A stretch of 64,000 nucleotides of DNA, taken from assembly GCA_951812955.1 (NCBI GenBank), contig OX638340.1, positions 1,792,001-1,856,000 on the forward strand. Reading direction: 5' to 3'. Shown one piece after another: positions 1 through 46,636 of this stretch. The translations under genes and the position numbers were made by a program. The notes beneath the pieces are model-generated. The model was given only the letters and a program-made list of their open reading frames with translations. It ran no database searches and was not told the origin of the DNA. Numbering within the stretch: the first letter of the stretch is position 1; each line of letters begins with the position of its first letter. This stretch comes from an uncultured Gemmatimonadota bacterium. Lineage in GTDB: Bacteria > JAAXHH01.

Positions 1-117
1 ACCGAAGCCCTGGTGACGGTGGGCATGCCGAAGTGGTGAAGCAGTCGAAGTAGATGCCCTGTTTTACTTAAATATTTGAACCTTAAGATAAAGTTAATCA
101 ATAGAAAGGGAACTTCC

Positions 118-1200: not shown

Positions 1201-1310
1201 CCGACAGTTCGCGGCAGTTTGCGCGTCCGAATAAAGTGAAATACGGAGAATGACCGGCGATCAGCACGGTAAAATCAAGGTCCGCCATTGCAGTCCACAA
1301 GGGAGGAATC

Positions 1311-5548: not shown

Positions 5549-6667
5549 TCAATTCGCAGACTCACGCCCCTGATCGGCCAGCACGTCCCGCAGCGTAGTG
5601 AGAAAAGCGTCATTCTCTTCCGGCAGCCCGATGGTTACCCGCATGCCCCGTTCCAGCATAGGGTAACGGCTGACGTCACGGATGAGCACGCCCCGGTCGA
5701 TCAGTCCGTGGAAGATTTCGTCGACCGGCCGTTCCGCCTCGAACAAAACAAAGTTGGCATGGGAGGGATAGGGTCGGATGCCTGGAAGGTTCAGCAGAGC
5801 CTGGAAGACCCGTTGTCTTTCTGATTGGATTATCGCCGCCCGTTCTTCGATCAAAGTCTCCTGGGCGATCAGCTTGCGCGCGGCAATCAGGGAAATGATG
5901 TTGACGTTGTACGGAAGCTCGACCTTCTCGATTTCCCGTGTCAGCGCCTGATCGGCGACCAGGTATCCCAGGCGGAGTCCAGCGGCGCCGAGGGCTTTCG
6001 AAAAGGTGCGGGTAATGACAATGTTCGGATAATCTGAAATCAGTTCGACGCAGGATACGCCGCCGAATTCGTAGTAGGCCTCGTCCACGACGACCAGGCC
6101 ATCAGTTTCCTCCGCGATCCGCGCCGTGTCCGCCGGTGAAATCATGGATCCGGTCGGGTTGTTCGGAGAGCACAGCACGACCAGTCTGACTTCGGGATGG
6201 GCACTTTCTTCCACCAACCGGTCGACATCGAAGCTCATATCGGCCTTGAGGTATACGGTCCGGATATCTGCACCCGCAATCCTGCCCATGAGTGCGTAGA
6301 GCGTAAAGGTCGGCGCCGGCAGAACGACCCGATCACCCGTAGCAATCGTTGCCTGGAAAACTGCCTGGATCAGTTCGTTCGAACCATTGCCGATAAGGAC
6401 GTACCCGGGACCCAGCCCGTGCCGCTTGCCGATGGACTCCTTGACCTCGCCGGGAACGAATCCCGGATACCGACCCCAGTTTGCGGCCAGGGCCTCGTCC
6501 ACGATCTCCCGCTTGAGATCCTCGGGAACGTCGAAGGGGCATTCGTTCTGGTTGAGTTTGACCGGACAGTCGGGCTGGACCAGGGTGTAGCCGGACATGG
6601 CGCGGACCGCCGCCTTCACACTCCGGACAGCGGCATTGCGTGGCTTTTCATCCATCGGAGCGGCCAC
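5549..6667 (-). CDS. hisC: Histidinol-phosphate aminotransferase
   Basis: KLNQNECPF motif and FSKALGAAGLRLGY (PLP lysine). It lies 4 nt downstream of hisG on the same strand. Confidence 0.85.
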   Translation of the reverse strand: MAAPMDEKPRNAAVRSVKAAVRAMSGYTLVQPDCPVKLNQNECPFDVPEDLKREIVDEALAANWGRYPGFVPGEVKESIGKRHGLGPGYVLIGNGSNELIQAVFQATIATGDRVVLPAPTFTLYALMGRIAGADIRTVYLKADMSFDVDRLVEESAHPEVRLVVLCSPNNPTGSMISPADTARIAEETDGLVVVDEAYYEFGGVSCVELISDYPNIVITRTFSKALGAAGLRLGYLVADQALTREIEKVELPYNVNIISLIAARKLIAQETLIEERAAIIQSERQRVFQALLNLPGIRPYPSHANFVLFEAERPVDEIFHGLIDRGVLIRDVSRYPMLERGMRVTIGLPEENDAFLTTLRDVLADQGRESAN

Positions 6668-19385: not shown

Positions 19386-19463
19386 ATTCTGTTAAGCGGC
19401 GCCATGGCAGAGGAGATCATCGTAGGAGGCGACCGCGACGGATCAGACCTTGGTGGAGGACCC

Positions 19464-30185: not shown

Positions 30186-31409
30186 TCAGGAATTTGAAAC
30201 ATTGGGCGGCCGCAACCCGACATATTTGGCCCGCGGCCGAATCAACTGGTCCCTTTCGTACTGCTCGATCGCGTGTCCGATCCAGCCGGCGGTGCGGCCC
30301 AGGGCGAACAGGGCCATGGCGCTTCCTTCGGGCATCTTAAGGACGCGAACCAGCGCCGTAAGGGCCAGGTCGATGTTGTACCTGTCCGGAATGAGCCGGT
30401 GGGTCGTATCGATGATTTCACGGGCAAGCTGCAGATCCTTCGAACCCGGAAATCGATCTTCCAGCTTGTGCAACAGCAGGCTCGCTCTCGGGTCCTCGCC
30501 GCGGTAAACGGCGTGCCCGAACCCTGGAATCTTCTCGCCAAGCCGCAGCCGGTGGGCGATCGCCAGTTCAGTGCTACCGGCCGATTCCACCTCTTGGAAC
30601 AGCGATTCGACGCGCTCGCTGGCCGCGCCGTGCTTATAGCCGCGCAGTGCGGCGAGTCCCGCGCAGACCGCGCTATAGGGCGTCGTACCTGCCGACGCGG
30701 CGCATCGCACCGTGAAGGTCGATACATTCAACTCGTGATCCGCGAACAGTACCAGCGTCGTATTGATCAACTCCGCCGCGCCATCTATATCCGCGGCCCA
30801 GGCCCTTCGCAAGGCCTGGGCGATCCCGCCCATCGGGTCTACGCCCGTGGCCACCCCCGTCATGAACCAGAGAATCCGCATGCCCGTAGCGGCGACCGCG
30901 TCCCTTCGCAGGTCCAGTGCGGCCAGGTCATCCGCCTCCGCAAGGGGCAGCAATGTTTGAAAGCGTTCGACGGGCTTCAGCGACTTCATTTTCAACCAGG
31001 ATTCCCGAAAATCTCTCTGGTAGGTATTTGAGAAAATCGGAAAGGAGAATCGTTTGTCTCCCGTCCAGATCAGTGCAGCGACGCGCTCAAACGATTCTTT
31101 CGCCGCAAGTATCGTCGCGTCGCGCCCTCTGTAAAACAACCTTTCGTCGGTGATCAGGGTAATGGCCGATTCAAGGATGGGATCTCCTGTATGCAAGGCG
31201 CGCTTGACCGCCCAGCCCGGATTCTGGCGGGCTTTCTTACGGGCCTTCAACCGCTCGATATCTTCACTGCGGTACAAACGCGTCCGCCGGCCGTCTCCGC
31301 TTTCTTCGGATCGGATCATGCCCCGGCTGACGTACGCATATAGTGTCGACGGATTGATGTTCAGTACGGAAGCCGCCTCGGTGGATGTCATGTATCTTCG
31401 GCTGTTCAT
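30186..31409 (-). CDS. Excisionase-type HTH domain fused to a citrate synthase-like domain (putative enzyme-derived regulator or divergent citrate synthase)
   Basis: The N-terminus MTSTEAASVLNINPSTLYAYVSRGMIRSEE...RLYRSEDIERL resembles HTH_17/Xis-like. The rest carries a citrate synthase fold with GFGHAVYRGEDPRA and the HELNVSTFTVR motif. Confidence 0.7.
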   Translation of the reverse strand: MNSRRYMTSTEAASVLNINPSTLYAYVSRGMIRSEESGDGRRTRLYRSEDIERLKARKKARQNPGWAVKRALHTGDPILESAITLITDERLFYRGRDATILAAKESFERVAALIWTGDKRFSFPIFSNTYQRDFRESWLKMKSLKPVERFQTLLPLAEADDLAALDLRRDAVAATGMRILWFMTGVATGVDPMGGIAQALRRAWAADIDGAAELINTTLVLFADHELNVSTFTVRCAASAGTTPYSAVCAGLAALRGYKHGAASERVESLFQEVESAGSTELAIAHRLRLGEKIPGFGHAVYRGEDPRASLLLHKLEDRFPGSKDLQLAREIIDTTHRLIPDRYNIDLALTALVRVLKMPEGSAMALFALGRTAGWIGHAIEQYERDQLIRPRAKYVGLRPPNVSNS

Positions 31410-34152: not shown

Positions 34153-34247
34153 TGGCGCATCGGTCGACGGCTGACAAATTGGTCGGCGACTGGCGCAATG
34201 GTCGGCGGCATGCGCAATGGTCGGCGGCATGCGCAATGGTCGGCGGC
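34153..34247. repeat. Five tandem 19-bp direct repeats (TGGCGCAATGGTCGGCGGC-like), ending about 50 nt upstream of the PhyH start
   Basis: Units at 34153, 34172, 34191, 34210 and 34229; the last three are near-identical (A/TGCGCAATGGTCGGCGGC). They share a CAATGG...CGGC core with the 31451-31519 array. Confidence 0.65.
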
Positions 34248-34294
34248 TGGCACTTTCGAAAATCCCAGTATCGATTCCAGGAAAGGAATCCCCC

Positions 34295-35185
34295 ATGGCG
34301 ATGGTCGACATGAAACAGATCCACGGTCTGGAAGATGTCACGGGGCTGCTGACGCGTCCCGACGAACTACGACAACGTGCCGTGGAGCAAGGTTGTCTGT
34401 TCTTTCGCGGACTTCTCGATCCGGGGAGCGTCCTTGAGGTCCGGCGGCAGGTGCTCGGCGTGTGCCGGGACCACGGGTGGCTCGCGGATGAATCGGACCT
34501 GATGGATGGCGTCGCGAATCCCGGAATCCGCGTAGGTGAAAGCGGCATCCCTAGCTGGCAGGCCTTTTACGATGACGTGCAGCGGATCCGCGATTTTCAC
34601 GCGCTCGCACTGGACCCGTCGATGATCGGGATGCTGGAAGCGCTGTTCGGAGAAACGGTACTGGCCCACAGCCGGAATATCTGCAGGCTGGTGTTCCCGG
34701 ATATGAACGCCCACTCGACACCGCCCCACCAGGACAACTACTTCATCGGCGGATCGGACGAGACGTGGACGGCCTGGATTCCCCTGGGCGACTGTCCCGA
34801 GGAACTCGGCGGACTCGCCGTCAACCGGGGATCCCATCGCAGGGGCATGCTGGAGACGACCGAAGGCGTCGGACCCGGCGGGCGGCAGGTGTACGTCGAA
34901 GACGATTCCACCTGGGTCGGCGGCGACTATGAATGTGGCGACGTGATCATTCTCCACAGCCTGACGATCCACCAGGGCCGGGACAACGTGACATCTGACC
35001 GCCTCAGGATTTCGACCGACTACCGTTACCAGCCAAGAAGCCACCCGGTCCGGGAGGATTCACTCCAACCACACATGAACTGGTTGACCTGGGACGAGAT
35101 ATACGAACAGTGGGATGAGGAAGATCCGGTGAAGTACTACTGGAAGGGCTGGGACTTGGACGTGGTCACGCGGGAGCCTCGATAG
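34295..35185 (+). CDS. Phytanoyl-CoA dioxygenase (PhyH) family protein
   Basis: ORF 34217.. trimmed to the ATG at 34295 (AGGAAAGGAA RBS). The upstream part of the ORF is simply the translated repeat array. PPHQDNYF...GSHRRG motifs are present. Confidence 0.7.
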   Translation: MAMVDMKQIHGLEDVTGLLTRPDELRQRAVEQGCLFFRGLLDPGSVLEVRRQVLGVCRDHGWLADESDLMDGVANPGIRVGESGIPSWQAFYDDVQRIRDFHALALDPSMIGMLEALFGETVLAHSRNICRLVFPDMNAHSTPPHQDNYFIGGSDETWTAWIPLGDCPEELGGLAVNRGSHRRGMLETTEGVGPGGRQVYVEDDSTWVGGDYECGDVIILHSLTIHQGRDNVTSDRLRISTDYRYQPRSHPVREDSLQPHMNWLTWDEIYEQWDEEDPVKYYWKGWDLDVVTREPR

Positions 35186-36495: not shown

Positions 36496-37257
36496 TTGGA
36501 CAGCGAACTACTGAAACGGGGATTCGCACCTCGGCCGCTGACGGACGCGCAACGCAGCGCGCTGGACACCGATGGCTTCATCGTGCTGGAGGAGGTCATC
36601 TCGCCAGACTGGCTCTCCGAACTGCGCCATGCATTCGATGAGATATTTGACAGCGAGGGCGATAGAGCCGGTGAGGAGGTCTCCCAGATGGAAGGGGTGC
36701 GCCGGCTTGCCGATCTGGTCAACAAGGGATCGGTATTCGATGCGGTTTACCTGCAGCCCGAGCTTTTGACGGCCGTCTACCATGTCCTGCAGAGGCCGTT
36801 CAAACTGCACTCGCTCAACGGGCACGACCCGCTTCCCAGCAACGGGTTACAGGTGCTGCACGCCGATTGGGGCCAACCTGCCGAGCCCGGCGGGCCGTAT
36901 CATGTCGTTAACTCTTTGTGGATGCTCGACGATTTCACCCTCGCCAACGGTGCGTCACGCTGCGTGCCGGGCAGCCACCTGAAACCCGGCAGGATCGGCG
37001 ACCTCGTAACGGACCGCCTGGCGGACCACCCCGACCAGGTACACCTGACGGGCCGTGCGGGATCGGTTGCCGTATTCAACGGCAGCCTCTGGCACAGCTC
37101 GTATGTCAACCTCAGCGGTGCCCCTCGCCGGACCCTGCACTGCGCCTTCATAGCCCGCGAACACCCGCAACAGACTAATCAGCGGGAGTATCTGCGGCCC
37201 GAGACCGCCCAACGGCTATCCCCACTGGCGCGCTACATCCTCGACGTCCCTCCGTAA
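36496..37257 (+). CDS. Phytanoyl-CoA dioxygenase (PhyH) family protein
   Basis: VLHADWG...PGSHLKPG...SLWHSS motifs. TTG start with an AAGGA RBS. Confidence 0.7.
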   Translation: MDSELLKRGFAPRPLTDAQRSALDTDGFIVLEEVISPDWLSELRHAFDEIFDSEGDRAGEEVSQMEGVRRLADLVNKGSVFDAVYLQPELLTAVYHVLQRPFKLHSLNGHDPLPSNGLQVLHADWGQPAEPGGPYHVVNSLWMLDDFTLANGASRCVPGSHLKPGRIGDLVTDRLADHPDQVHLTGRAGSVAVFNGSLWHSSYVNLSGAPRRTLHCAFIAREHPQQTNQREYLRPETAQRLSPLARYILDVPP

Positions 37258-37496
37258 CACGATTACACGGTAGTTTGTTAATTTTTGTAGGGGAATTAGT
37301 ATGTAAAAACAACAATACGGCAGGCAATAGAAGTTGGGTCTAGTTGTTCCCACCCGTATTGTCCCCAAGTGCTGTACTTTCAACGTACATTCAGTCAATT
37401 AAAAAAATCGTGACCCACCTCTTTAATTCTGATGTTCATTCTCCTTCGGGTGATGTTTGGTTTGATTTCAGTCGACATTGTATCCTTACGTGCATT

Positions 37497-39572
37497 CTAG
37501 TTCACTAACTCAAATACATGCTTAACACTACCGTCCGGTTTTAACACGAGCCCAAACCACTTTTCCAACTTATGTGGGTATACACTTTCTTTGGAATCCC
37601 GGTGAAATTTCTCCTCTAACACCTCCACGGTAGATCTACTACAGTAAATAAACAGTCCTATAGGTAAACCTGGGAACAAAGCACGAACTGTCTGGCTCTT
37701 CTTATTTAATAAATGCCGATTACAAATCCGATTGATATTTTTGTTTATAGTTTTACAAACATCGTCAGACAAGGTTATCAAGAAAAGCCCAAGGTCGATT
37801 TTCAATGGATCGGGGGAGGTTTCCAATTCCTTCAAGATGCTTCCCAAGGGCGTACCAACCAATCTTGTCAGTATGCCATCTGGAGTCGGTATTCCGTCTA
37901 TGCCGTCCCTCCTGACCGCCATTGCAGTATCGAGATGCACTGAGAAATCGTCATCAATTAACATCAAGTCAATATCGTCTCTAAGCCATAGGTTATGTCT
38001 TAGGTGATAGGACAGCAACATATGCTCATGACTCGCCATCAGACGCTCGCCAAATCGTGCCCGTAACTCAAGGTAACTTAAAAACCATAGAGGCGTAGAT
38101 AACATTTCTGATATCGCATCGAGTGAAAAAACGTCGGTGACAAGTGGAGGTAAAATCTGAGTAGTTGACTTGTATTCTAAAAACTGTCTCAACTGAAAAG
38201 CCAACGCCGGGTAATGGTCCGCGATGATTGCTACAGGAAAAATAACCTTCTGAGATTCTTCTATACGGATTACCTCGTTGTTCTTGGTATATAGACTTAC
38301 GGACTGATCTCCGAGGAGTTTAGCACACTCAAATGACTGCTCTACTGCATCTTGAATCGCCATCCTAAAGTCGGATCTTAACACTCGATCGTTCCCTCTT
38401 CGAGATTCCAGTGTTAGCCTTTTTGATTTCGATTGCACCAAAACAACCCGGTCGCCAAATATCACCAAGACATCAATCTCTCCAAGTGTGTGCCCTTTGG
38501 TCTTTCGTAACTCGACGTTTTTATACACTCGATCAGAACCAAAGACATGAACAAGTCTATCATATGTAAAGCTCTCCGTGAAATCCCCTCGATGTGTAAG
38601 TGCTGTTGGTGCATACAAACTATCAGTGCACATCCAATAGAACGGTGTTTCATAAAACGCTTCCGTTAATCCGTAATACTGCAAGAGTACGTATTTATCT
38701 ACATCTCTACGTATGAACGGGTAGATATAGGCTTTGTTAAAGTCATTGATAGTTGAGAAGCCAGCATTTCTTTCGCAAGAAGGTAAAGTAAATGCGTTTA
38801 CAAATGCTTGAACGTCTTCTGTAGGAAATCCTATATAGGAAGCAAGTTCAGTGCAGGAAAAGGTAAAGAAAGGTAAGACCGCCCGATCCTTAGCAGGCCC
38901 TTTTATTTGGTCGCTCAAGACTGTTTCTAAACTCCGGTTTAGGACGTAAGGAATCCCATCACACACCGCCTTTCCAACTACCAAATCAACTGATTTGTTC
39001 TGAGAAAGCCAGTCGGAATCGAGACTGTATTTTGTCAATGCTAGATCACGGTATTGAAAGGGATATGCAGACTCGCCTGCGTAGAAAATGGGTTCCCTAA
39101 GGGATTCCCCGGTAGAGAATGGATTTGCATTAGGGACAGACCCGCCGACTACTCTCCGCTGCATCAACTTCAACGTAGGTTGCACCATAGTTAAGTGCAA
39201 TTCATCCAACAGTTCCGCGGACTTCTTGATGTAATCATTAAGAACTGTAGGTGTTGGCATGGAAAAGTCGATAGGGCCTCGCATCATGAGACCGATTAGC
39301 GTGGTGATTTCGGTACGGATTAGCTGCGAATGGGATCGCCATTGAAGAAGTTCGTCGGAATTTAGTTCATCCTTGAAACCGACGACATTGTCCCGCAGTG
39401 AAATAAAAGCGATTGCGTGAATAAAACCTACGGAGAGGCACAATGCAGCCAGGTCATCAAACACAGACTGTTCTGAGCGCATATAAACGATCCTGGGCTG
39501 TAGCAGACAATTCCAAATTGCGTCTATTGGATTCGAAAGCCAAGAGTTGGATTCTGAATCCGAACCGTTCAT
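37497..39572 (-). CDS. Large (691 aa) protein with a central NERD-like PD-(D/E)xK nuclease motif; N- and C-terminal regions unassigned
   Basis: FGSDRVYKNVELRKTKGHTLGEIDVLVIFGDRVVLVQSKSK at residues ~343-384 fits the NERD / PD-(D/E)xK pattern (GE..hh...E-h-D-hhhh...hhhh-Q/E-x-K). No Walker A motif. AT-rich codon usage. Confidence 0.55.
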   Translation of the reverse strand: MNGSDSESNSWLSNPIDAIWNCLLQPRIVYMRSEQSVFDDLAALCLSVGFIHAIAFISLRDNVVGFKDELNSDELLQWRSHSQLIRTEITTLIGLMMRGPIDFSMPTPTVLNDYIKKSAELLDELHLTMVQPTLKLMQRRVVGGSVPNANPFSTGESLREPIFYAGESAYPFQYRDLALTKYSLDSDWLSQNKSVDLVVGKAVCDGIPYVLNRSLETVLSDQIKGPAKDRAVLPFFTFSCTELASYIGFPTEDVQAFVNAFTLPSCERNAGFSTINDFNKAYIYPFIRRDVDKYVLLQYYGLTEAFYETPFYWMCTDSLYAPTALTHRGDFTESFTYDRLVHVFGSDRVYKNVELRKTKGHTLGEIDVLVIFGDRVVLVQSKSKRLTLESRRGNDRVLRSDFRMAIQDAVEQSFECAKLLGDQSVSLYTKNNEVIRIEESQKVIFPVAIIADHYPALAFQLRQFLEYKSTTQILPPLVTDVFSLDAISEMLSTPLWFLSYLELRARFGERLMASHEHMLLSYHLRHNLWLRDDIDLMLIDDDFSVHLDTAMAVRRDGIDGIPTPDGILTRLVGTPLGSILKELETSPDPLKIDLGLFLITLSDDVCKTINKNINRICNRHLLNKKSQTVRALFPGLPIGLFIYCSRSTVEVLEEKFHRDSKESVYPHKLEKWFGLVLKPDGSVKHVFELVN

Positions 39573-39708
39573 CCATGGCTTTTAACTTTAGATTCTCCAG
39601 ATAGCTGTTTCGGATAATTAAACAAGTCAGTTCGCCGGAAACATCTCGTGCAACCCGCGCTGATACACCGTTGGTGACTACAGCTTCACCGTCGGTGTGA
39701 ACGCACCT

Positions 39709-39957
39709 TTACCGGTTGTTGTGATTATCCACGGGTTTGTTTTCTTCTGAAGCGTGGTGGTCATCGCCTAACGGGATTAAATCCTTCGATATAGCCAGCG
39801 AACCGCCTATTAGAGCCATGAGTGGAGACTTTACGACTTCGTAAGCGTCCTCCGCTGTCATTCCTCCGCTCCAACACATCGCAACGAAGATGATTATAAG
39901 CGAAGAGTAACCTAAACCCACAAGGACCAGTACATTCTTCCGCCACGGAACCTTCAT
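39709..39957 (-). CDS. Small 2-TM membrane protein preceding the NERD-like gene
   Basis: ORF 39709..39990 trimmed to the second of two adjacent ATGs (GGAGGA RBS). It carries the hydrophobic helices VLVLVGLGYSSLIIIFVAMCW and LMALIGGSLAI. Same strand and same low-GC composition as the NERD gene. Confidence 0.45.
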   Translation of the reverse strand: MKVPWRKNVLVLVGLGYSSLIIIFVAMCWSGGMTAEDAYEVVKSPLMALIGGSLAISKDLIPLGDDHHASEENKPVDNHNNR

Positions 39958-40029
39958 CATATCCTCCTTTTGGGTATTCTCCCAATTCACATAATATGTT
40001 TGACAATCGCTTTATAATGCTCCGAGCAA

Positions 40030-41445
40030 CTAACCAAACAACTCCTGCACCATTCCCCGCGCCCGATCGATCACGGTTTCGAGACAGCCGGGTGCTAGCT
40101 TGGCCCAGTAGGTGACATCTTCGTTGGCCTCGTGTCCACCGCGGGCATATGCCTCCCTCGTCGGCAGGTAACCGACATAGTGCGTCGTGAGGTGTGCCGG
40201 AAACAGATAGGAAGCTGGCGAGTTTACTTTAAGCGACAGTTGTCCTTCCACAAAGGGCTCACCGGGGAGGCCTACAATACAAAGATTACCGATGCGCAAG
40301 GCCTGTATCTCATAGCTGAACTCGCCGTCCCTCTGCCTGCATAGTTCGACGCTGCGGGTCGATGCCGCCCGAAACCAGCGCGGCTCCACTTGACCGTTCT
40401 CTTCGCGCGGCGGTTCCGGATGCTCAGTGAGAATCGCATCGACTTCGCGCAGTCGTTCGTCCGATATCTCGCGAAAGGGCAGTCTGATCTTTTCTATCCT
40501 TGTATCTAGCGCAGCATCGCCGGCGAACGTCATGTTGCGCATGATACGTTCGCTCAGACCGGATAATCCTCGCCCCATACGCCGGTGGTCCGGCTTAAAA
40601 TCGGGGTCGAAGGGGTGCCAGGGGTTGATGTTGCCGCAACATCCGTTGACGACCAACGGCACGGAATCCGGATCGAAAATCTGCTGCATCTCCCGGGACC
40701 AGGCGCCGGGCCAATCCGCCGACGCGGCCATGAAGGTCTCCTCGTTTCCGTATGCATTGACCGGATGACACGTGTAGTGCAGGAGAAAGGCCAGCGGTTT
40801 CGAATTCATATCCTGGACGCAGCACACGCCTACCTCCGGGTCCATCGGCCCTTCCAGGTAGCACACATCCGAGATCCCGAAGGGCTGCCGCTCCCGACCA
40901 AGGGGTCTGGGCATAACTATGGTACCGTCCCTTCGAACGCCGCGGCGGTTAAAAGCCAGGTCGCCCAACACGCCGCGGCCCAGACCGATGCGTGCCGGTT
41001 GTAGCCTGCCGGCTGCCTCGACCGCGGCCTCAACGGCAGCGGCTGCGGCCCGGTCGCCATAGGCGCGTTCGGCCCCCCGCAGATACTCCGTTTCCTCGCT
41101 AGTCTCCATTGGAAAATCCGAATCCAGCATGAAGTAACCGAGGCTCGGGGCGGAATGCGTCTGCGTCGCCTGGACCATGATGGCGTCTCGTTCTATGCCC
41201 GTCTGCTCGCTGATGGCCGCACGGATCCGGTCTGTGTATTCACCGGTGACAATGGTGAGATCCAGGATCACGATGCAGACGCGCCGCCCATCCGCTTCGA
41301 AAACGATGGCCTTGGCAAAGAGCGGATCCAAAACGGCCTGGGTCGGACGGTGGTCACCGGCTCCGCTGCCCGCCAGATGCGTCCCCTCCGAAGGGGATAT
41401 GTCGATCATTGCCGCACCGGCGCTCAGCTGGTTCGACTCGTTCAT
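40030..41445 (-). CDS. Neutral/alkaline ceramidase family protein
   Basis: ORF trimmed to the ATG at 41445 (AAAGGAAAG RBS). AIMVQATQTHSAPSLGY and LLHYTCHPVNAYG resemble neutral-ceramidase catalytic-domain motifs (THTHSGP / AIHPVS) as remembered. Confidence 0.55.
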   Translation of the reverse strand: MNESNQLSAGAAMIDISPSEGTHLAGSGAGDHRPTQAVLDPLFAKAIVFEADGRRVCIVILDLTIVTGEYTDRIRAAISEQTGIERDAIMVQATQTHSAPSLGYFMLDSDFPMETSEETEYLRGAERAYGDRAAAAAVEAAVEAAGRLQPARIGLGRGVLGDLAFNRRGVRRDGTIVMPRPLGRERQPFGISDVCYLEGPMDPEVGVCCVQDMNSKPLAFLLHYTCHPVNAYGNEETFMAASADWPGAWSREMQQIFDPDSVPLVVNGCCGNINPWHPFDPDFKPDHRRMGRGLSGLSERIMRNMTFAGDAALDTRIEKIRLPFREISDERLREVDAILTEHPEPPREENGQVEPRWFRAASTRSVELCRQRDGEFSYEIQALRIGNLCIVGLPGEPFVEGQLSLKVNSPASYLFPAHLTTHYVGYLPTREAYARGGHEANEDVTYWAKLAPGCLETVIDRARGMVQELFG

Positions 41446-41796
41446 GGCTTTCCTTTCGCAGTCTGAAGAGTAACCCGTGGGGCGTAACCCAGGGACCCGC
41501 GCGGGGATTATCCCGTGTGGGGAGGATCCCAGTCCATGTGGGGAGTAACTCGTAACGTACAGACTATGGCACCAGTACCGTTTCGTCAACGCCGTTCAGC
41601 CTTGACAGACGCGTGTATCTTACTTGTATCACAGTGTACGAAGATATGGGTTAAACGGCGCGGTCCAGTGGAGTACTCGAGCAACAGGCGAACGGAGCGC
41701 CGCGTATTAGCCGCCGGCCAGTTGATGAAGACCGACATGCATGATGAAGACTAACGCACAGAATGGTCACACCATCTGAGAAAGGACTGGTCAATC

Positions 41797-42936
41797 ATGA
41801 TTGAATTGCTCGGCATCGGCCACTTTTTTGAACTTACACGGTCGGAAGCTATTATGGGGTTTTTCACCCCGCTGATCGTCTATGCCGTGTTTTTCCTGGT
41901 GCAGCTCATCCTGCCCGGGCGGAGGGTTCCCGGTTACGTCATCAATCCGGAGACGGGTAAACCGCGCAATTACCGGCTCAACGGCATGCTCGTGTTCCTG
42001 ATCATGCTGATCGTCTGGGCGTTCGAACTCACCGGGATGCCCCACGACTGGTTCTTCCGGTCCTCGATCTACGCTGTGGCCGGCGGAACGGTTTTCGCCA
42101 TTATCTTTACCATAATCGCGACATTTACCCAGCCTGAAGGCAAGGTGAAGAGCCGGTTCCTGGCATGTTGGTTCGGCCGGGCCCAGGAGATTTCGTTCTT
42201 CAACGAGCGTATCGACGTTAAGATGTACATGTACGTTGTCGGCGGGTCGATGCTGTCGCTAAACGCCCTATCCGGGGCCGTGTACCACTACCAGGTATTT
42301 GGAGAGAACGCCAACCCAGGCGTTTTCATCTATGCGGGTTTCTTCACGTTCTACATCCTCGATTACTTCGTCTTTGAGCGCGTGCAACTCTACACCTACG
42401 ACCTGATCCACGAGAATGTGGGCTTCAAGCTGATCTGGGGCTGTCTCGTGGTCTACGGATGGCTATTCATCCTCCCGCTTTGGGGCATGGCCGCCTACCC
42501 GAACCCAGGCTTCTCACCGGCATGGACGAACTTCTGGCTGATTGGCACCTCAGCACTGTTCCTGTTGGGATGGAGCATTTCCCGCGGCGCCAACCTGCAG
42601 AAGTATACGTTTAAAAGGTGGCCCGAACGAAAGTTCCTGGGGCTCATCGAACCGAAATACATTCAGGCTGGCGACCGCAAGATACTCTACAGCGGCCTGT
42701 GGGGCGTCGCCCGCCATCTCAACTACATGGGCGAGGGCTTCCTTTCCCTGTCCATCGCCCTGATATTCGGCTATTTCACCAATTTCTGGGCCTGGACCTA
42801 CCTCCTCTTCATCGTCTCGATGTTCTCCTACCGTCAACTCGATGACGACAGGCACTGCGCCGAGAAATACGGTACCAAAAAGTGGGCGGAATACCAGGAG
42901 AAGGTGAAGTACCGGATCGTGCCGGGGATTTATTGA
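41797..42936 (+). CDS. ERG4/ERG24 family sterol reductase-like integral membrane protein
   Basis: GLWGVARHLNYMGEGFLSLSIAL matches the sterol-reductase signature (RHPNYxGE), and roughly 8 TM helices are predicted; 379 aa. A GAAAGGA RBS lies upstream. Confidence 0.6.
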   Translation: MIELLGIGHFFELTRSEAIMGFFTPLIVYAVFFLVQLILPGRRVPGYVINPETGKPRNYRLNGMLVFLIMLIVWAFELTGMPHDWFFRSSIYAVAGGTVFAIIFTIIATFTQPEGKVKSRFLACWFGRAQEISFFNERIDVKMYMYVVGGSMLSLNALSGAVYHYQVFGENANPGVFIYAGFFTFYILDYFVFERVQLYTYDLIHENVGFKLIWGCLVVYGWLFILPLWGMAAYPNPGFSPAWTNFWLIGTSALFLLGWSISRGANLQKYTFKRWPERKFLGLIEPKYIQAGDRKILYSGLWGVARHLNYMGEGFLSLSIALIFGYFTNFWAWTYLLFIVSMFSYRQLDDDRHCAEKYGTKKWAEYQEKVKYRIVPGIY

Positions 42937-43400
42937 GCGAGGTTATGAGAAACGCTAGTTCAGATTGCTTCCAAATCGTAGCGATATAGATCAGCGGACC
43001 AGGGAAGAGGGCATACCCTCTCAAGCGCTGCCGTCTAGCGCCATCCAAAGGCACCTGTCCGGCCGCCTTACAGAGAAGAAGTAAAATGACCCTGTGTCCG
43101 CCTCTGCATGGGCACCGGGGTTGTATTAAACCGGTTTGTCGACGAGCTTTTTATCCTCCTCGCCCGGTTGGTACTCCTTACATATCCTGGTGACCGGTTT
43201 TACCCGAACCTGACCAGACTCATCTTCCTCTGTTTATCACATGAAGCATACTGATCTACGGTTGCGCTGCTGTCTGCGAATGCTATATTGCCTCGTCGAC
43301 AACGTAAACGCACGCGACCCAAATGCACCCGAACCAAACGCACCTGAAGAAAATACACTCATAGCAAATGCACGCACCGAACAGGAAACGTTAGGATAGT

Positions 43401-45713
43401 TTGAACATGACAAAGGCTAGTTTGATTTTTACGGCAGTGGCGCGCTGTTGTATGGCAGCGGGCGCAATTTACTTCGCGAGCGCGATTCATTCCACTCCGA
43501 CCGCCGACGCCCAGGTTACCGAGCATCGGCTCACCATTCTCCACACCAACGATCTACAGGGCGGTATCTACTCCGAGGACGGTTTCGACGATGGGGACCA
43601 GGCTGGGAACCAGGATCCGGAAGATGCGGCGGACCGGGGCGGCCTGGCCACGCTCGCGTCGATGATCCAAGCCCATGGCCGCGCCGGTGCAGACTCGATC
43701 TTGGTACTGGACGGCGGAAATGCCATGGGCGCGACGCCTGCCTGCGACGTGGACGGCTGCCGCACGCTGTTTCAACTCATGAGTATGGCGGGGTACGATG
43801 CCATGGCCGTAGGCAGCCACGAGTTCACATATGGTATCGACACCCTCACCACCCGTGCGGGGCAGGCGGATTTCCCCATACTGGGCGCTAATCTGGGACT
43901 TGGCGACACGGTCCATGGGGCCACCACGCCATTCCTCCTGACCGAAAGGAGCGGATTGCGGATCGCCGTCATGGGGCTCGTTTCCTCCCGAACGGCCGAC
44001 GACCTTTCATCGGTGAACCCCGCGGACTTGGAATTCCACGATCCGCGGGCGACGCTCGAGTCACTTCTGGCTGGGCCCGCGGGCCTCGCAGACTTGCGAA
44101 TCGCACTCGTCAACATGAGCATGGACGAGGCAAGGGACCTCGCGCTGGCCTTTCCCCAGGTACAGCTGTTCATCGCGGGAGGCACGGCTGCCGGTCCCGA
44201 ACCGCGCCCTGCGGAACATGTGGTCCGCTTCGTCGGTGGTCGATACCTGGTTACCACGCCGGGACGGGGTACCCACCTGGGTAGACTCGAAATCACTTTC
44301 CGCCGGGACGGTGCCAAGACGGTTGTTTCCAATCTGATTCCCGTCCTGGTACCTGCCGGTTCGTCCCTGCTTCCATACCTCGCGACCGCAACAGGTTCGT
44401 CCGATACATCCGGTGCCGCGACACCAAATCCTGCGCCCGTGCCTATGGATCCCGCGGTATCGGCTCTCGTCGCCGGGCACAGAGAAACCGTGCGCAGAAT
44501 CTATGACGTCCGCATTGGCAGGACCCGGGAACCCATCGAGGATACCGGATCCTGGATCGCCGACCTGGCGCGCACGAAACTGGCGGCCGACGTCGCGGTG
44601 ATCGATCGGCACGCGCTTCGGCCGTTACGATTGGACGGGGAGGTTCGACTGCGTTCGGTTACACGGCTGGTGCGCGACAACGATGTGCTGGTCCGCGTTT
44701 CCATGTCTGGACGGCAGTTGCGGACATGGGCCGGCGGGCTGCCGCGGGAACACGAAGTGGTCTTTGCGGGGTACGATGGGGATTCCGGCGAGGTCGACGG
44801 GCGGCCGCTGAATCGGGACAGGACGTACGTGGTGGCAGTCCCGTTGGTCCTGGCGGATCAGAATCTGACCCGGCAGGTCAGGAATTCTCGCTTATCGAAC
44901 GTTCCCGGTGCACGCATTGGACTGAGGGAAATGGTGGCAGCCCACGTGCGGATTCACGGTACCGTGGACCGCTGGCAGGGAATTCGGCGGGGGCCGCGCA
45001 GTGCAACGGAGGGCAGCACACGGTTAAACGGCTCCTTGTCGCAGACTACGCTGGAAGGGCCCGTCGACCAGTACAGCCGCGATCCGTTCCTGAGTGGAGA
45101 GGAAGCCCTGGCCTGGATCGTCAACGTAGAGCACAATTCAACCCGGTACACCCCGGCGGGAACGTTTTCGGCTCTGTTGAGGACAGGCTACGGCAGGTTG
45201 AACAACAACGGGAGCCAACGGGAGGCCTTGGACCGGATCGACGGCGAACTGCTCTATTCACTGCCGCATTCGCAACTGTCCCAGTTCCTCGGGTTCGACG
45301 TCAACACGGTGTGGACGGGTGACGAAGGTCGGAAACACCCTGTTGTGCTTCGGTTCAAGGGAGGTCTCCAGTCGGAGCTCGGTTCCCAGGCGATCGTTCG
45401 TGTCGGTCTGGCCCTGGAGAGAGACCGGATCACCGCGATGAATGTCGTGGGCATCGAGGTGGCGCCCGAGTACCGGACGACACTTCTTCCAGGCAATACG
45501 CTATCGTCTCAGGCCCGCGTTTTCTGGGGAACCGGTCAGCACCAGACCATGTCTGTACAGCACTTCAACCACCTGCGTTTCCGCCTGCTGGACGATCTTG
45601 CCGCCACGCTCGACGCGAACATCTTCCTCCACCGGGACAGCGACATCGACCGGTCGGCCGTCAAGTTCGAACTGCAGGTCGGCCTCGGATACGACTGGCG
45701 TTACTACAGGTGA
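43401..45713 (+). CDS. Secreted bifunctional metallophosphatase/5'-nucleotidase family protein with a ~250-aa C-terminal extension
   Basis: Signal peptide, then LTILHTNDLQGG, GNAMG and GSHEF metallophosphatase motifs and a 5'-nucleotidase C-domain. The extra C-terminal domain has alternating hydrophobic residues (possible beta-barrel) and ends in ...GYDWRYYR. Confidence 0.6.
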   Translation: MNMTKASLIFTAVARCCMAAGAIYFASAIHSTPTADAQVTEHRLTILHTNDLQGGIYSEDGFDDGDQAGNQDPEDAADRGGLATLASMIQAHGRAGADSILVLDGGNAMGATPACDVDGCRTLFQLMSMAGYDAMAVGSHEFTYGIDTLTTRAGQADFPILGANLGLGDTVHGATTPFLLTERSGLRIAVMGLVSSRTADDLSSVNPADLEFHDPRATLESLLAGPAGLADLRIALVNMSMDEARDLALAFPQVQLFIAGGTAAGPEPRPAEHVVRFVGGRYLVTTPGRGTHLGRLEITFRRDGAKTVVSNLIPVLVPAGSSLLPYLATATGSSDTSGAATPNPAPVPMDPAVSALVAGHRETVRRIYDVRIGRTREPIEDTGSWIADLARTKLAADVAVIDRHALRPLRLDGEVRLRSVTRLVRDNDVLVRVSMSGRQLRTWAGGLPREHEVVFAGYDGDSGEVDGRPLNRDRTYVVAVPLVLADQNLTRQVRNSRLSNVPGARIGLREMVAAHVRIHGTVDRWQGIRRGPRSATEGSTRLNGSLSQTTLEGPVDQYSRDPFLSGEEALAWIVNVEHNSTRYTPAGTFSALLRTGYGRLNNNGSQREALDRIDGELLYSLPHSQLSQFLGFDVNTVWTGDEGRKHPVVLRFKGGLQSELGSQAIVRVGLALERDRITAMNVVGIEVAPEYRTTLLPGNTLSSQARVFWGTGQHQTMSVQHFNHLRFRLLDDLAATLDANIFLHRDSDIDRSAVKFELQVGLGYDWRYYR

Positions 45714-45771: not shown

Positions 45772-46509
45772 TCAGTTCTTCCTCGCCACATGCCGATCTT
45801 CATACACACCCTTCAGAAACTTCTTCGGATTGAATTCTTCGGGCATGTAATGCCATGCTGTACTGTAGCGCGTGCGATGGCTGTGATTATCATAGGCGCC
45901 GTGCAGCAGATTTGCGGAAAACAGCACGACCGTCCCCGCGGGGATGACCAGGTCCACCGCCTGCGCTTCATCGACCTTCGTCCAGCTGCCATGGCGGCTT
46001 AATTCGCTGCAGTGCTCGACAATCTCGCCTATCCGGTGGCTGCCGGGCACTACCCGCAGACAACCATTCTCCACGTCTGCATCTTCCAGGTAAATTCCGC
46101 AGCTGACAATACGATCCGTGTCGGTCCCAAAATAGAAATTGTCCTGGTGCCAGCCCGTCGACGTGCCGCCATTGGGCAGCTTCGGGAAGAACTTGGTACC
46201 GAACACGTCGATATCTCCACCAATCAGATCGGCCACACGGTCCACAATCGCCGGCTCGCGCGCCAGTTCCAGCACACGGTCGTCGACCACGCAAACCCCC
46301 TGGACTTTGTGCAACAAACCCGCCCGAGGTTCGCCTCGCTCGTCCAACTCGAGCGCCCAGTGGGGTGTCTGCTCTTTCAATTTGCTTCCCTCGGCGACCA
46401 TTTCATCGAACACCTGCTTGTACCAGTCCAGTCGCTCACCTTGAATGAGGGCTTCAAAAACGAGATAGCCATCTTCTCGAAACTGCAGTATCTGTTCGCT
46501 AGTCAACAT
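45772..46509 (-). CDS. Phytanoyl-CoA dioxygenase (PhyH) family protein
   Basis: ORF trimmed to the ATG at 46509 (GAGG RBS). GWHQDNFYF...PGSHR...LLHGA motifs. Confidence 0.7.
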   Translation of the reverse strand: MLTSEQILQFREDGYLVFEALIQGERLDWYKQVFDEMVAEGSKLKEQTPHWALELDERGEPRAGLLHKVQGVCVVDDRVLELAREPAIVDRVADLIGGDIDVFGTKFFPKLPNGGTSTGWHQDNFYFGTDTDRIVSCGIYLEDADVENGCLRVVPGSHRIGEIVEHCSELSRHGSWTKVDEAQAVDLVIPAGTVVLFSANLLHGAYDNHSHRTRYSTAWHYMPEEFNPKKFLKGVYEDRHVARKN

Positions 46510-46636
46510 GAGAACCTCATTAGAATCCGCGTCCTTCGCCAACTAGCGCTCCAGCAGTCGGCGACCGGCGGCGGCCATCTTCCCCGCAATCCGCTTATCT
46601 TCCTCGCGCTCCGACAAGTAGCAACAGGCCGCGGGA

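What the first reader, a model, noticed from the sequence alone, without database searches (positions are those of the whole stretch)
40030..42936. Divergently arranged eukaryote-like lipid enzymes: neutral-ceramidase family and ERG4/ERG24 sterol-reductase family
The gene at 40030..41445 has ceramidase catalytic-domain signatures (QTHSAPS..., HPVN). The divergent gene at 41797..42936 has the RHxNYxGE sterol-reductase signature with multiple TM helices.

Both families are rare in bacteria and are associated with sphingolipid and sterol-like lipid metabolism. Their pairing across a shared promoter region hints at coordinated membrane-lipid remodelling. The ceramidase-family gene's 3' end abuts the low-GC island.
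Basis: partly seen in the sequence, partly recalled or inferred. Interest (0 to 1): 0.5.

Follow-up and report, generated by a model that had tools for sequence, protein, structure and literature searches.

The report
Ceramidase-fold and sterol-reductase genes: chance neighbours
Two back-to-back genes in a sponge-associated bacterium do belong to the ceramidase-fold and ERG4/ERG24 sterol-reductase families, but they are not a working pair: the reductase is an accessory gene already known in kind from sponge symbionts, and the "ceramidase" is a soluble enzyme with an altered active site that probably does not cut ceramide.

Summary
Both ORFs and the quoted motifs are real. Gene B (41797..42936, +, 379 aa) is a clear ERG4/ERG24 member: Pfam 125 bits against a cut-off of 27, and E=5e-34 to the Δ14-sterol reductase structure 4QUV. 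Gene A (40030..41445, -, 471 aa) scores below the Pfam and NCBIfam ceramidase cut-offs, but its predicted fold matches only neutral ceramidases (Foldseek E~1e-23). It has no C-terminal ceramidase domain and no signal peptide. One zinc-ligand His is an invariant Gln, and one catalytic Tyr is an invariant His.

The window comes from a sponge-associated Gemmatimonadota/Latescibacterota lineage. The divergent pairing occurs only in the clade with at least 85% identity, in 12 of 17 genome loci. It is missing from the closest relative and from all 33 distant loci. Gene B sits in a variable slot. In relatives its co-directional partners are an SRD5A-like reductase and a methyltransferase. Gene A is the constant flank.

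The gene B subfamily was recovered only from sponge metagenomes, at 62-88% identity across hosts of 49-72% GC. ERG24-type genes spread among sponge symbionts are already published.

No sterol or sphingolipid synthesis genes were found in the window. Verdict: new members of known kinds. Coordinated lipid remodelling is not supported.

The parts
40030..41445 (-). Gene A: a 471-aa soluble protein with the neutral-ceramidase catalytic-domain fold. It has no C-terminal ceramidase domain and no signal peptide, and its metal site is altered.
   Evidence: The ORF is. Pfam PF04734 gives 27.5 bits, below the gathering score of 32.1, over aa 35-168 only. NCBIfam neutral ceramidase gives 27 bits against a cut-off of 1200. 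The AF2 model has pLDDT 78.5 and pTM 0.85. The only significant Foldseek PDB hits are 2zws, 2zxc and 4wgk, at E 1e-22 to 1e-23 and TM 0.64-0.66. No transmembrane or signal segment was found; the maximum Kyte-Doolittle 19-residue score is 1.3.
41446..41796 (.). A 351-nt divergent intergenic spacer. It is longer than the 76-340 nt between the matched parts of the two genes in relatives that have the pair.
   Evidence: The sequence is. One weak sigma-70-like match lies in the spacer (- strand, towards gene A) and one just inside gene B, and the count does not exceed the shuffled expectation (3 found, 2.5 expected). Only the ends of the spacer are shared with relatives.
41797..42936 (+). Gene B: a 379-aa polytopic membrane protein of the ERG4/ERG24 sterol-reductase family. 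It belongs to a subfamily recovered here only from sponge metagenomes.
   Evidence: PF01222 gives 125 bits against a gathering score of 27. 4quv (MaSR1) matches at E=5e-34 over aa 28-379. The equivalents of MaSR1 Y241, D257, N359 and R395 are retained as Y186, D202, N309 and R346; D363 is replaced by E313. There are at least 5 strong hydrophobic segments. All 57 metagenome loci come from sponge metagenomes.
42937..43400 (.). Spacer between gene B and the next gene. About 42945-43250 has no counterpart in any relative and marks the junction of the variable slot.
   Evidence: One search gives the sequence. Searches show that blastn matches relatives only at the two ends. No remnant of the SRD5A-like or methyltransferase genes was found.
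43401..45713 (+). A 770-aa UshA/5'-nucleotidase-like ORF with a hydrophobic N-terminus. It is a second occupant of the variable slot, shared only with the closest relative L011.
   Evidence: Searches give the family matches (5_nucleotid_C; UshA-like, 95 bits). Searches show it is present in the window and L011 only.
45772..46542 (-). PhyH-family dioxygenase. It is the conserved far boundary of the variable slot.
   Evidence: PF05721 gives 118 bits. It is syntenic in all close relatives.
37257..40029 (.). Low-GC island next to gene A's 3' end, specific to this strain. It holds a 691-aa NERD-domain ORF (37497..39572, -) and a 93-aa hydrophobic ORF (39709..39990, -). It is not part of the gene pair.
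   Evidence: GC is 0.42-0.47. NERD scores 25 bits. The island is absent from L009, L011, L012, L014, L015, L020, L023 and L024. PADLOC gave no hit.

Best explanation
The two genes are unrelated neighbours at the edge of a variable genomic slot in a sponge-associated Gemmatimonadota/Latescibacterota bacterium.

Gene A is a core gene of the lineage. It is a soluble, probably cytoplasmic, metal-dependent amidohydrolase built on the neutral-ceramidase catalytic fold. It keeps the equivalents of His196, Arg257, His303, Glu540 and Tyr579 of human neutral ceramidase. Throughout its family, however, it has Gln in place of the zinc ligand His194 and His in place of Tyr591. It lacks the C-terminal domain and any export signal. 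I infer that it hydrolyses a soluble amide, possibly an N-acylated amino-sugar or similar catabolite, rather than membrane ceramide.

Gene B is an accessory gene. It is a membrane-embedded, NADPH-dependent C=C reductase of the ERG4/ERG24 family, and its closest characterised relatives are Δ14-sterol reductases. It belongs to a tight subfamily found in many phyla of sponge symbionts. In relatives it heads a co-directional cassette of ERG24-like, SRD5A-like reductase and class-I methyltransferase genes, and different strains have lost different members. In this window only the reductase remains.

I infer that gene B reduces a double bond in a sterol or steroid-like lipid that is obtained from the host or the community rather than made de novo.

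Shown here: the families, the fold, the residue conservation, the synteny and the distribution. Inferred: the substrates, the NADPH use and the exogenous origin of the substrate.
For: Family and fold.

Active-site mapping of gene A onto PaCD (2zws) and human nCDase (4wgk):
- Q95 aligns with H97/H194.
- H97 aligns with H99/H196.
- R167 aligns with R160/R257.
- H227 aligns with H204/H303.
- E396 aligns with E411/E540.
- Y426 aligns with Y448/Y579.
- H438 aligns with Y460/Y591.
All seven are invariant in a 17-sequence alignment that goes down to 57% identity. The catalytic roles of H196, R257, Y579 and Y591 are taken from PMC6952831. Gene A has no hydrophobic segment.

Gene B keeps the MaSR1 NADPH and catalytic residues.

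Synteny:
- ERG is adjacent to gene A in 12 of 17 loci with at least 85% identity.
- ERG lies within 10 kb in 6 of 35 loci at 73-80% identity, in different arrangements.
- ERG is absent from all 33 loci below 73% identity.
- The closest relative, L011 (92-95% nt identity), has gene A but no ERG.

Slot contents in the close clade:
- ERG + SRD5A-like + MT in L009, L019 and L021.
- ERG + SRD5A-like in L048.
- ERG + MT in L017, L018, L022, L053 and L091.
- ERG alone in L012, L014, L016 and L023.
- MT alone in L013, L015, L020 and L024.
- NT5 alone in L011.

Distribution of gene B:
- All 57 metagenome loci are from sponge metagenomes.
- Only one full-length 50%-identity cluster exists, and the next relative is at 48%.
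- Gene GC tracks host GC, r=0.86.
- Neighbours are not conserved, and no OSC or CYP51 was seen among the recurrent neighbour families that were scanned.
- In Dadabacteria the gene lies next to a sterol methyltransferase and a sterol-sensing RND transporter.

Published background: ERG24-type genes are enriched in sponge symbionts of 10 phyla including Gemmatimonadetes, are under purifying selection and show horizontal transfer (PMC9531527).
Against: No biochemical data exist for either subfamily.
- Gene B lacks the first roughly 75 residues (TM1) of MaSR1 and has Glu instead of the proposed catalytic Asp363, so its substrate and regiospecificity cannot be read from homology.
- The rest of the genome could not be searched, so de novo sterol synthesis elsewhere is not excluded.
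- Gene A and ERG lie within 10 kb of each other in three different arrangements across the wider lineage: divergent; tandem in L045; about 6 kb apart in L042, L043, L050 and L070. This could reflect weak selection for linkage rather than inherited synteny.
- The AF2 model of gene A is poor in several loops (pLDDT below 50 at 163-201 and 272-279).
Confidence: 0.6

Rival explanations
1. A neutral ceramidase and a sterol reductase share a divergent promoter and jointly remodel sphingolipid and sterol-like membrane lipids.
For: The divergent arrangement is retained in 12 of 17 close genome loci. In the wider lineage the two genes stay within 10 kb in other arrangements, including tandem in L045. 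Both folds come from lipid-enzyme families.
Against: - The pairing is absent from the closest relative and from four other close relatives, from 29 of 35 loci at 73-80% identity, and from all 33 distant loci.
- Only 2 of 57 loci with gene B homologues carry gene A.
- Gene A is soluble, lacks the C-terminal domain and has an altered metal site.
- Gene A's contexts elsewhere are glycoside hydrolases, sulfatases, amidohydrolases and sugar-isomerase-like genes.
- Gene B's co-directional partners are SRD5A-like and MT genes.
- Promoter-like sites are not enriched.
- No spt or sterol synthesis genes were found in the window.
Confidence: 0.07
2. Gene B is the C-14 (or another nuclear) reductase step of a complete de novo sterol pathway. 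The other genes of that pathway lie elsewhere in the genome.
For: The best solved relative is the Δ14-sterol reductase MaSR1. Automated JGI names for relatives are 'delta14-sterol reductase'. Kelly et al. report ERG24-CYP51-LSS clusters in sponge symbionts, including Gemmatimonadetes.
Against: - No OSC or CYP51 neighbour turned up among the recurrent neighbour families scanned around gene B homologues in 57 metagenome loci, or in the genome loci.
- The gene is dispensable among near-identical relatives.
- None of the window ORFs scanned belongs to a sterol-pathway family.
- The subfamily is only 33-42% identical to canonical reductases, lacks TM1 and has Asp363 replaced by Glu.
Confidence: 0.18
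3. Gene B reduces a non-steroid lipid, for example a polyprenoid, carotenoid-like or other unsaturated isoprenoid or fatty chain. The sterol label comes only from family naming.
For: Many homologues are labelled DUF1295 by NCBI. The Glu at the Asp363 position is, from memory, the residue typical of DUF1295/SRD5A-type relatives. Genomic contexts are highly variable, with FMO-like, P450, alpha/beta-hydrolase and CoA-transferase neighbours.
Against: The PF01222 score (125 bits) far exceeds the DUF1295 score (30 bits). In Dadabacteria the gene is linked to a sterol methyltransferase and a sterol-sensing RND transporter, and in the window's own clade to an SRD5A-like steroid reductase. The subfamily was recovered only from sterol-rich sponge hosts.
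Confidence: 0.17
4. Gene A is a genuine ceramidase that degrades host sponge sphingolipids taken up into the cell.
For: It has the neutral-ceramidase fold, with five of seven mapped active-site positions kept. In one Kiritimatiellota locus it lies next to a gene with GH123_N matches; from memory, GH123 includes glycosphingolipid beta-N-acetylgalactosaminidases.
Against: It is below threshold for both curated ceramidase models. It has no export signal and no C-terminal domain. The substitutions at the Zn-ligand His and at Tyr591 are invariant. Neighbours in other phyla point to soluble sugar and amide catabolism.
Confidence: 0.1

Closest known systems
Neutral ceramidase (Pseudomonas aeruginosa PaCD, PDB 2ZWS/2ZXC; human ASAH2, PDB 4WGK)
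   Same: The catalytic-domain fold is the same and is the only significant structural match. The equivalents of His99/196, Arg160/257, His204/303, Glu411/540 and Tyr448/579 are conserved.
   Different: - Sequence identity is 15-18%.
- Gene A is below the Pfam and NCBIfam thresholds.
- It is 471 aa against 630-780 aa and has no C-terminal domain.
- It has no signal peptide or membrane anchor.
- The Zn ligand His97/194 is an invariant Gln, and Tyr460/591 is an invariant His.
- It carries a family-specific NGCCGNINP motif.
- Its genomic contexts are carbohydrate and amide catabolism, not lipid.
MaSR1 Δ14-sterol reductase of Methylotuvimicrobium alcaliphilum (PDB 4QUV) and eukaryotic ERG24/TM7SF2/LBR
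   Same: Both are PF01222 members aligned over aa 28-379 at E=5e-34. The NADPH-pocket residues Asn359 and Arg395, the proposed catalytic Tyr241 and the universally conserved Asp257 are all retained.
   Different: Gene B lacks the N-terminal roughly 75 residues (TM1). Asp363 is Glu in 124 of 126 subfamily members. It is only 33-42% identical to canonical reductases in the phmmer matches. It is not clustered with OSC or CYP51. Its regiospecificity is unknown.
Steroid-gene clusters and scattered ERG24 genes of sponge symbionts (Kelly et al. 2022, PMC9531527; Brown et al. 2023, PMC10070321)
   Same: The habitat is the same (sponge microbiomes) and so is the KEGG-level family (TM7SF2/ERG24). The multi-phylum distribution with purifying selection and horizontal transfer matches, and Gemmatimonadetes are among the carriers. 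In Dadabacteria gene B's homologue lies beside an SMT.
   Different: The published core cluster is ERG24-CYP51-LSS. Gene B's subfamily was not found next to an OSC or CYP51 in any locus examined. In this lineage its partners are an SRD5A-like reductase and a generic methyltransferase.
Steroid 5α-reductase / DUF1295 membrane reductases (PF02544, PF06966)
   Same: They are distantly related polytopic NADPH-dependent reductases. Gene B has a secondary DUF1295 match of 30 bits, and a PF02544 gene follows it in relatives.
   Different: Gene B's primary and much stronger match is PF01222. PF02544 proteins are about 250 aa.

Membership tests
Neutral/alkaline ceramidase (PF04734 + C-terminal domain; NCBIfam NF041649) | Score above the curated profile thresholds | tested here: not met
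   PF04734 gives 27.5 bits against a gathering score of 32.1, covering aa 35-168 only. NF041649 gives 27 bits against 1200. phmmer against 4wgk gives E=0.12. The profile of the family against 2zws gives E=5e-6.
Neutral/alkaline ceramidase (PF04734 + C-terminal domain; NCBIfam NF041649) | Catalytic-domain fold | tested here: met
   The AF2 model (pTM 0.85) matches 2zws, 2zxc and 4wgk at E 1e-22 to 1e-23 and TMq 0.64-0.66. The next hit has E 1.5e-3 and TM 0.11.
Neutral/alkaline ceramidase (PF04734 + C-terminal domain; NCBIfam NF041649) | Zn2+ site His/His/Glu/Tyr (PaCD H97, H204, E411, Y448; human H194, H303, E540, Y579; the ligand list is recalled from the structure papers) | tested here: not met
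   Three of the four are kept (H227, E396, Y426). The first His is Gln95, invariant in 17 diverse family members.
Neutral/alkaline ceramidase (PF04734 + C-terminal domain; NCBIfam NF041649) | Catalytic residues His196, Arg257, Tyr579 and Tyr591 (PMC6952831) | tested here: inconclusive
   H97, R167 and Y426 are kept. The Tyr591 equivalent is an invariant His438.
Neutral/alkaline ceramidase (PF04734 + C-terminal domain; NCBIfam NF041649) | C-terminal immunoglobulin-like ceramidase domain | tested here: not met
   The protein ends at 471 aa, about 33 residues after the segment that aligns to PaCD residues 395-462. No Pfam hit lies beyond aa 168. The solved ceramidase chains are 630-690 aa.
Neutral/alkaline ceramidase (PF04734 + C-terminal domain; NCBIfam NF041649) | Secreted or membrane-anchored location | tested here: not met
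   There is no hydrophobic N-terminus or TM segment. The maximum 19-residue hydropathy is 1.3.
Neutral/alkaline ceramidase (PF04734 + C-terminal domain; NCBIfam NF041649) | Hydrolysis of ceramide | not testable with these tools
   This needs an enzyme assay.
ERG4/ERG24 sterol reductase (PF01222) | Score above the Pfam gathering threshold over the whole domain | tested here: met
   125.1 bits against 27, with aa 27-379 aligned to profile positions 76-432 of 432.
ERG4/ERG24 sterol reductase (PF01222) | NADPH-pocket residues (MaSR1 Asn359 and Arg395, equivalent to LBR N547 and R583) | tested here: met
   N309 is conserved in 125 of 126 subfamily members and R346 in 126 of 126.
ERG4/ERG24 sterol reductase (PF01222) | Proposed catalytic Tyr241 and Asp363, and the universally conserved Asp257 (MaSR1 numbering, PMC12489058) | tested here: inconclusive
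   Y186 and D202 are kept. Asp363 is Glu313 in 124 of 126 subfamily members, a conservative but systematic change.
ERG4/ERG24 sterol reductase (PF01222) | Ten-TM architecture | tested here: inconclusive
   The alignment starts at MaSR1 residue 76, and gene B has only about 27 residues before that point, so TM1 appears to be missing. The hydropathy scan resolves only 5-7 segments. No structure was predicted.
ERG4/ERG24 sterol reductase (PF01222) | Genomic association with sterol synthesis or modification genes | tested here: inconclusive
   None was found among the window ORFs scanned. No OSC or CYP51 appeared among the recurrent neighbour families scanned around gene B homologues. There are, however, an SMT and a sterol-sensing RND transporter in the Dadabacteria loci and an SRD5A-like gene in the window's own clade.
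ERG4/ERG24 sterol reductase (PF01222) | NADPH-dependent reduction of a defined sterol double bond | not testable with these tools
   This needs heterologous expression and sterol analysis.
Functionally coupled divergent gene pair | Adjacency conserved beyond close relatives | tested here: not met
   Adjacency holds in 12 of 17 loci at 85% identity or more, in none of 35 loci at 73-80% identity (ERG lies within 10 kb in 6 of these), and in none of 33 loci below 73% identity. Only 2 of 57 gene B loci carry gene A. The closest relative lacks gene B.

The most novel reading that the evidence does not exclude
The 379-aa ERG24-like subfamily has no TM1 and has Glu for the catalytic Asp. Together with the SRD5A-like reductase and the methyltransferase that follow it in relatives, it could be a horizontally spread cassette specific to sponge symbionts. 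Such a cassette would convert host sterols, for example saturating nuclear or side-chain double bonds on the way to stanols or alkylated sterols, and so contribute to the unusual sterol inventories of sponges and to sterane biomarker signals. Independently, the 471-aa soluble ceramidase-fold family with a Gln-substituted metal site could be an uncharacterised class of cytoplasmic amidohydrolase with a non-lipid substrate.
Probability: 0.2. Interest if true: 0.6.

Novelty: new member of a known kind. Interest (0 to 1): 0.27.

Why it matters
If gene B's subfamily acts on host sterols, it bears on who makes or edits sponge sterols. That question underlies the use of sterane fossils as animal biomarkers, and bacterial sterol methyltransferases have already complicated it (PMC10070321). 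The finding adds little beyond published surveys, which already report ERG24-type genes spread across sponge-symbiont phyla (PMC9531527). Its useful residue is practical. It defines a tight, easily cloned reductase subfamily with a candidate three-gene cassette. It also flags a widespread soluble family that automated pipelines label 'ceramidase' although its active site and gene contexts argue against that label.

Tried and rejected
- NCBIfam gave no hit for gene B.
- The exact gene B protein is not on record in the contig index.
- The AFDB50 fold library was unavailable, so no annotated AlphaFold neighbours of gene A could be listed.
- Naming of distant gene B relatives through cluster look-ups returned only automated 'delta14-sterol reductase' labels, 'hypothetical' and one 'Ste14'. 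No characterised ERG4 or DHCR7 reference came back, so a subfamily phylogeny against characterised enzymes could not be built.
- A literature search for the short soluble ceramidase-like family found nothing relevant.
- Clustering the neighbours of gene A across 85 loci found no neighbour conserved across phyla; only PhyH and KatG recur.
- Clustering the neighbours of gene B across 59 loci likewise found none. One apparent 12-locus cluster was an antisense-ORF artefact of my own ORF caller.
- Compositional evidence for recent transfer of gene B was sought and rejected. Its GC is 0.552 against 0.569 in the flanks, and across 62 gene copies in the fetched loci and the window gene GC tracks host GC (r=0.86).
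- No remnant of the SRD5A-like or methyltransferase genes exists in the window spacer.
- PADLOC and the repeat scan did not explain the low-GC island.


Full report
**Observation.** The two ORFs are at the stated coordinates. Gene A runs 40030..41445 on the - strand. Starting at the ATG at 41445 it encodes 471 aa, the length of nearly all its homologues. Gene B runs 41797..42936 on the + strand and encodes 379 aa, as do almost all of its homologues. The quoted motifs (QTHSAPS, HPVN, RHLNYMGE) are present. The genes are divergent across 351 nt. The low-GC stretch next to gene A's 3' end is real (GC 0.42-0.47).

**Source organism.** The best genome match to gene A is 94% identical, in a Gemmatimonadetes MAG labelled APA_bin_41. 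The other close matches are MAGs labelled Gemmatimonadota or Latescibacterota whose isolate and bin names look like those used for sponge samples (IRC, RHO, SB06xx). The window therefore comes from a sponge-associated member of that lineage. The surrounding genes fit such an organism: several PhyH dioxygenases, sulfatase, KatG, and FG-GAP and Calx-beta proteins.

**Gene A: family and fold.**
- It scores below the curated ceramidase thresholds. PF04734 gives 27.5 bits against 32.1, over residues 35-168 only. NF041649 gives 27 bits against 1200.
- An AlphaFold model built on 17 homologues (pLDDT 78.5, pTM 0.85) matches only the neutral ceramidases 2ZWS/2ZXC and 4WGK (E 1e-22 to 1e-23, TM 0.64-0.66, 15-18% identity). 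Nothing else is significant. The fold assignment is therefore sound.

**Gene A: active site.** Sequence and profile alignments to both solved enzymes let the active site be read.
- Kept and invariant in the family are the equivalents of human His196, Arg257, His303, Glu540 and Tyr579. These are H97, R167, H227, E396 and Y426.
- Zn-ligand His194 (PaCD His97) is an invariant Gln95.
- Tyr591 (PaCD Tyr460) is an invariant His438.
- The catalytic roles of H196, R257, Y579 and Y591 come from PMC6952831. The Zn-ligand list is from my recollection of the structure papers.

**Gene A: other features.** The protein has no signal peptide or TM segment. It ends about 33 residues after the catalytic-domain segment that aligns to the solved ceramidases, so the C-terminal ceramidase domain is absent.

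**Gene A: distribution and context.** The family is widespread. Pattern scanning found 166 loci in species-representative genomes. The 80 kept include Latescibacterota, Gemmatimonadota, Lentisphaerota, Verrucomicrobiota, Armatimonadota, Poribacteria, Bacillota, Actinomycetota, Hydrogenedentota and a Bathyarchaeia MAG. Outside the window's lineage its neighbours are:
- GH123-N, GH2, GH106 and GH28-like hydrolases;
- sulfatases;
- xylose-isomerase-like TIM barrels;
- Amidohydro_2 proteins;
- a DegT aminotransferase;
- a PIG-L deacetylase;
- PhyH and hydantoinases.

Tandem paralogues occur in a Bacillota locus and a Lentisphaerae locus. No lipid genes appear. I infer a cytoplasmic metallo-amidohydrolase acting on a soluble amide. 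A genuine ceramidase is possible but unlikely, about 0.1.

**Gene B: family and residues.**
- It is a solid ERG4/ERG24 member: PF01222 gives 125 bits against 27, and E=5e-34 to MaSR1 (4QUV) over residues 28-379.
- Residues were mapped from the literature (PMC4951196; PMC12489058). NADPH-pocket Asn359 and Arg395 are N309 and R346. Proposed catalytic Tyr241 is Y186. Universally conserved Asp257 is D202.
- Proposed catalytic Asp363 is Glu313, and it is Glu in 124 of 126 subfamily members.
- The protein lacks the first roughly 75 residues of MaSR1, so TM1 is probably missing.

**Gene B: subfamily and distribution.**
- In a library clustered at 50% identity the subfamily forms a single full-length cluster. 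The next relatives are at 48% and 41%, followed by canonical reductases at 33-42%. Where those relatives carry a name, it is an automated 'delta14-sterol reductase' label.
- All 57 metagenome loci found are from sponge metagenomes. They are 62-88% identical, in host contigs of 49-72% GC.
- Named homologues come from Gemmatimonadota, Dadabacteria, Chloroflexota, Acidimicrobiia, Actinomycetia and Acidobacteriota MAGs.
- Gene GC tracks host GC (r=0.86). The spread is therefore not recent, or the gene is old and strongly constrained.
- This matches the published picture of ERG24-type genes in sponge symbionts: 10 phyla, purifying selection, horizontal transfer, often scattered (PMC9531527).

**Is the pair a unit?** The pairing was tested across 85 genome-derived loci that carry gene A homologues.
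- Divergent adjacency is present in 12 of 17 loci where gene A is at least 85% identical.
- It is present in none of 35 loci at 73-80% identity. Gene B is within 10 kb in six of these, in other arrangements: tandem downstream in L045, and about 6 kb away beyond KatG in L042, L043, L050 and L070.
- It is present in none of 33 more distant loci.

The closest relative, L011 (92-95% nucleotide identity), has gene A next to the 5'-nucleotidase-like gene and no gene B. Conversely, only 2 of the 57 sponge-metagenome loci with gene B carry gene A, and both belong to the same clade.

**The variable slot.** The interval between the PhyH gene (45772..46542) and gene A differs between relatives:

| Slot contents | Loci |
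|---|---|
| ERG24-like + SRD5A-like (PF02544, 252 aa) + class-I methyltransferase | L009, L019, L021 |
| ERG24-like + SRD5A-like | L048 |
| ERG24-like + methyltransferase | L017, L018, L022, L053, L091 |
| ERG24-like alone | L012, L014, L016, L023 |
| Methyltransferase alone | L013, L015, L020, L024 |
| Nucleotidase-like alone | L011 |
| ERG24-like + nucleotidase-like | window |

Gene B's co-directional partners are therefore the SRD5A-like reductase and the methyltransferase. This looks like an operon-like cassette that different strains have lost in different parts. Gene A is simply the constant flank. Promoter-like matches in the region do not exceed the shuffled expectation.

**Context of gene B elsewhere.**
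- In Dadabacteria it lies beside a sterol methyltransferase, two GPP34-P450 fusions, an amine-oxidase-like gene, and an MMPL/sterol-sensing RND transporter with a DUF1329 partner. GPP34-P450 is an architecture reported as exclusive to sponge symbionts (PMC11706023).
- In Chloroflexota it lies among CoA-transferases.
- Other loci have FMO-like monooxygenases, P450s, alpha/beta-hydrolases or KatG nearby.
- No OSC or CYP51 was seen among the recurrent neighbour families that were scanned.
- None of the roughly 50 larger ORFs of the 64-kb window scanned with Pfam belongs to a sterol, hopanoid or sphingolipid synthesis family. The class-I/II aminotransferase at 5549..6667 sits beside hisG and is most simply HisC.

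**Mechanism proposed.**
- Gene B is an NADPH-dependent membrane C=C reductase acting on a sterol or steroid-like lipid. The substrate is probably acquired from the host or the community, because the gene stands alone, is dispensable among near-identical strains, and is confined to sterol-rich sponge hosts. Its regiospecificity is unknown.
- Gene A is an unrelated soluble amidohydrolase.
- Confidence in this overall picture is about 0.6.

**Novelty and verdict.** Both genes are new members of known kinds. Automated pipelines already label homologues 'neutral/alkaline non-lysosomal ceramidase N-terminal domain-containing protein' and 'DUF1295 / ergosterol biosynthesis protein / delta14-sterol reductase'. 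The sponge-symbiont ERG24 phenomenon is published. Three points are modestly new. The first is the ERG24-like/SRD5A-like/methyltransferase cassette and its strain-level erosion. The second is the systematic Asp-to-Glu change and loss of TM1 in the subfamily. The third is the Gln and His substitutions that argue against the 'ceramidase' label for gene A's family. Interest is 0.27.

Noticed in passing
window 37257-40029: A low-GC island (GC 0.42-0.47) holds a 691-aa ORF with a weak NERD nuclease-related domain (37497..39572, -) and a 93-aa hydrophobic ORF (39709..39990, -). It is absent from all 8 close relatives compared. PADLOC gave no hit and there are no clear flanking repeats.
   Followed up: partly
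window 43401-45713: A 770-aa UshA/5'-nucleotidase-like ORF with a hydrophobic N-terminus and a long C-terminal extension that matches no family. It is shared only with the closest relative L011, so it is a second variable occupant of the slot.
   Followed up: partly
L009 11253-12827; also L019, L021, L048: An SRD5A-like (PF02544, 252 aa) membrane reductase and a class-I methyltransferase follow the ERG24-like gene on the same strand. This is a candidate three-gene steroid-modifying cassette, and different strains have lost different members.
   Followed up: yes
L001-L004, L100, L101 (Dadabacteria-type sponge contigs): Here the ERG24-like gene is flanked by a sterol methyltransferase, two 672-aa GPP34-P450 fusions, an amine-oxidase-like gene, a 448-aa unknown, a DUF1329/TP_0789-like protein and an MMPL/sterol-sensing RND transporter. 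This looks like a sterol modification and transport cluster without an OSC.
   Followed up: partly
window 30186-31409 (-): A MerR-type HTH is fused to a citrate-synthase domain in a 407-aa ORF, next to an isocitrate/isopropylmalate dehydrogenase and a second, ordinary citrate synthase. The fusion is conserved in relatives L009 and L012.
   Followed up: no
window 19404-20303, 34217-35185, 36496-37257, 45772-46542, 62942-63736: Five PhyH-family (phytanoyl-CoA dioxygenase-like) paralogues lie within 64 kb. PhyH genes also recur next to gene A homologues in 31 of the 85 loci examined.
   Followed up: no
L074 8666-11413; L085 8511-12741: Gene A's family occurs as tandem paralogues. There are two copies in a Bacillota MAG, flanked by Amidohydro_2 and xylose-isomerase-like TIM-barrel genes. 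There are three copies in a Lentisphaerae MAG, after a DegT-type aminotransferase.
   Followed up: partly
L109, L126, L129, L138: A 530-770-aa FMO/Baeyer-Villiger-type flavin monooxygenase lies next to or within a few kb of the ERG24-like gene (directly adjacent and divergent in L126 and L138), and L126 and L138 also have paired P450 genes nearby. L129 carries two ERG24-like matches.
   Followed up: partly
L042, L043, L050, L070, L106, L111, L112: A KatG catalase-peroxidase lies within 0.6-7 kb of the ERG24-like gene, both in the window's wider lineage and in higher-GC contigs of unknown affiliation.
   Followed up: no
window 76-2390: A tandem pair of DUF2961 paralogues of 374 and 359 aa.
   Followed up: no
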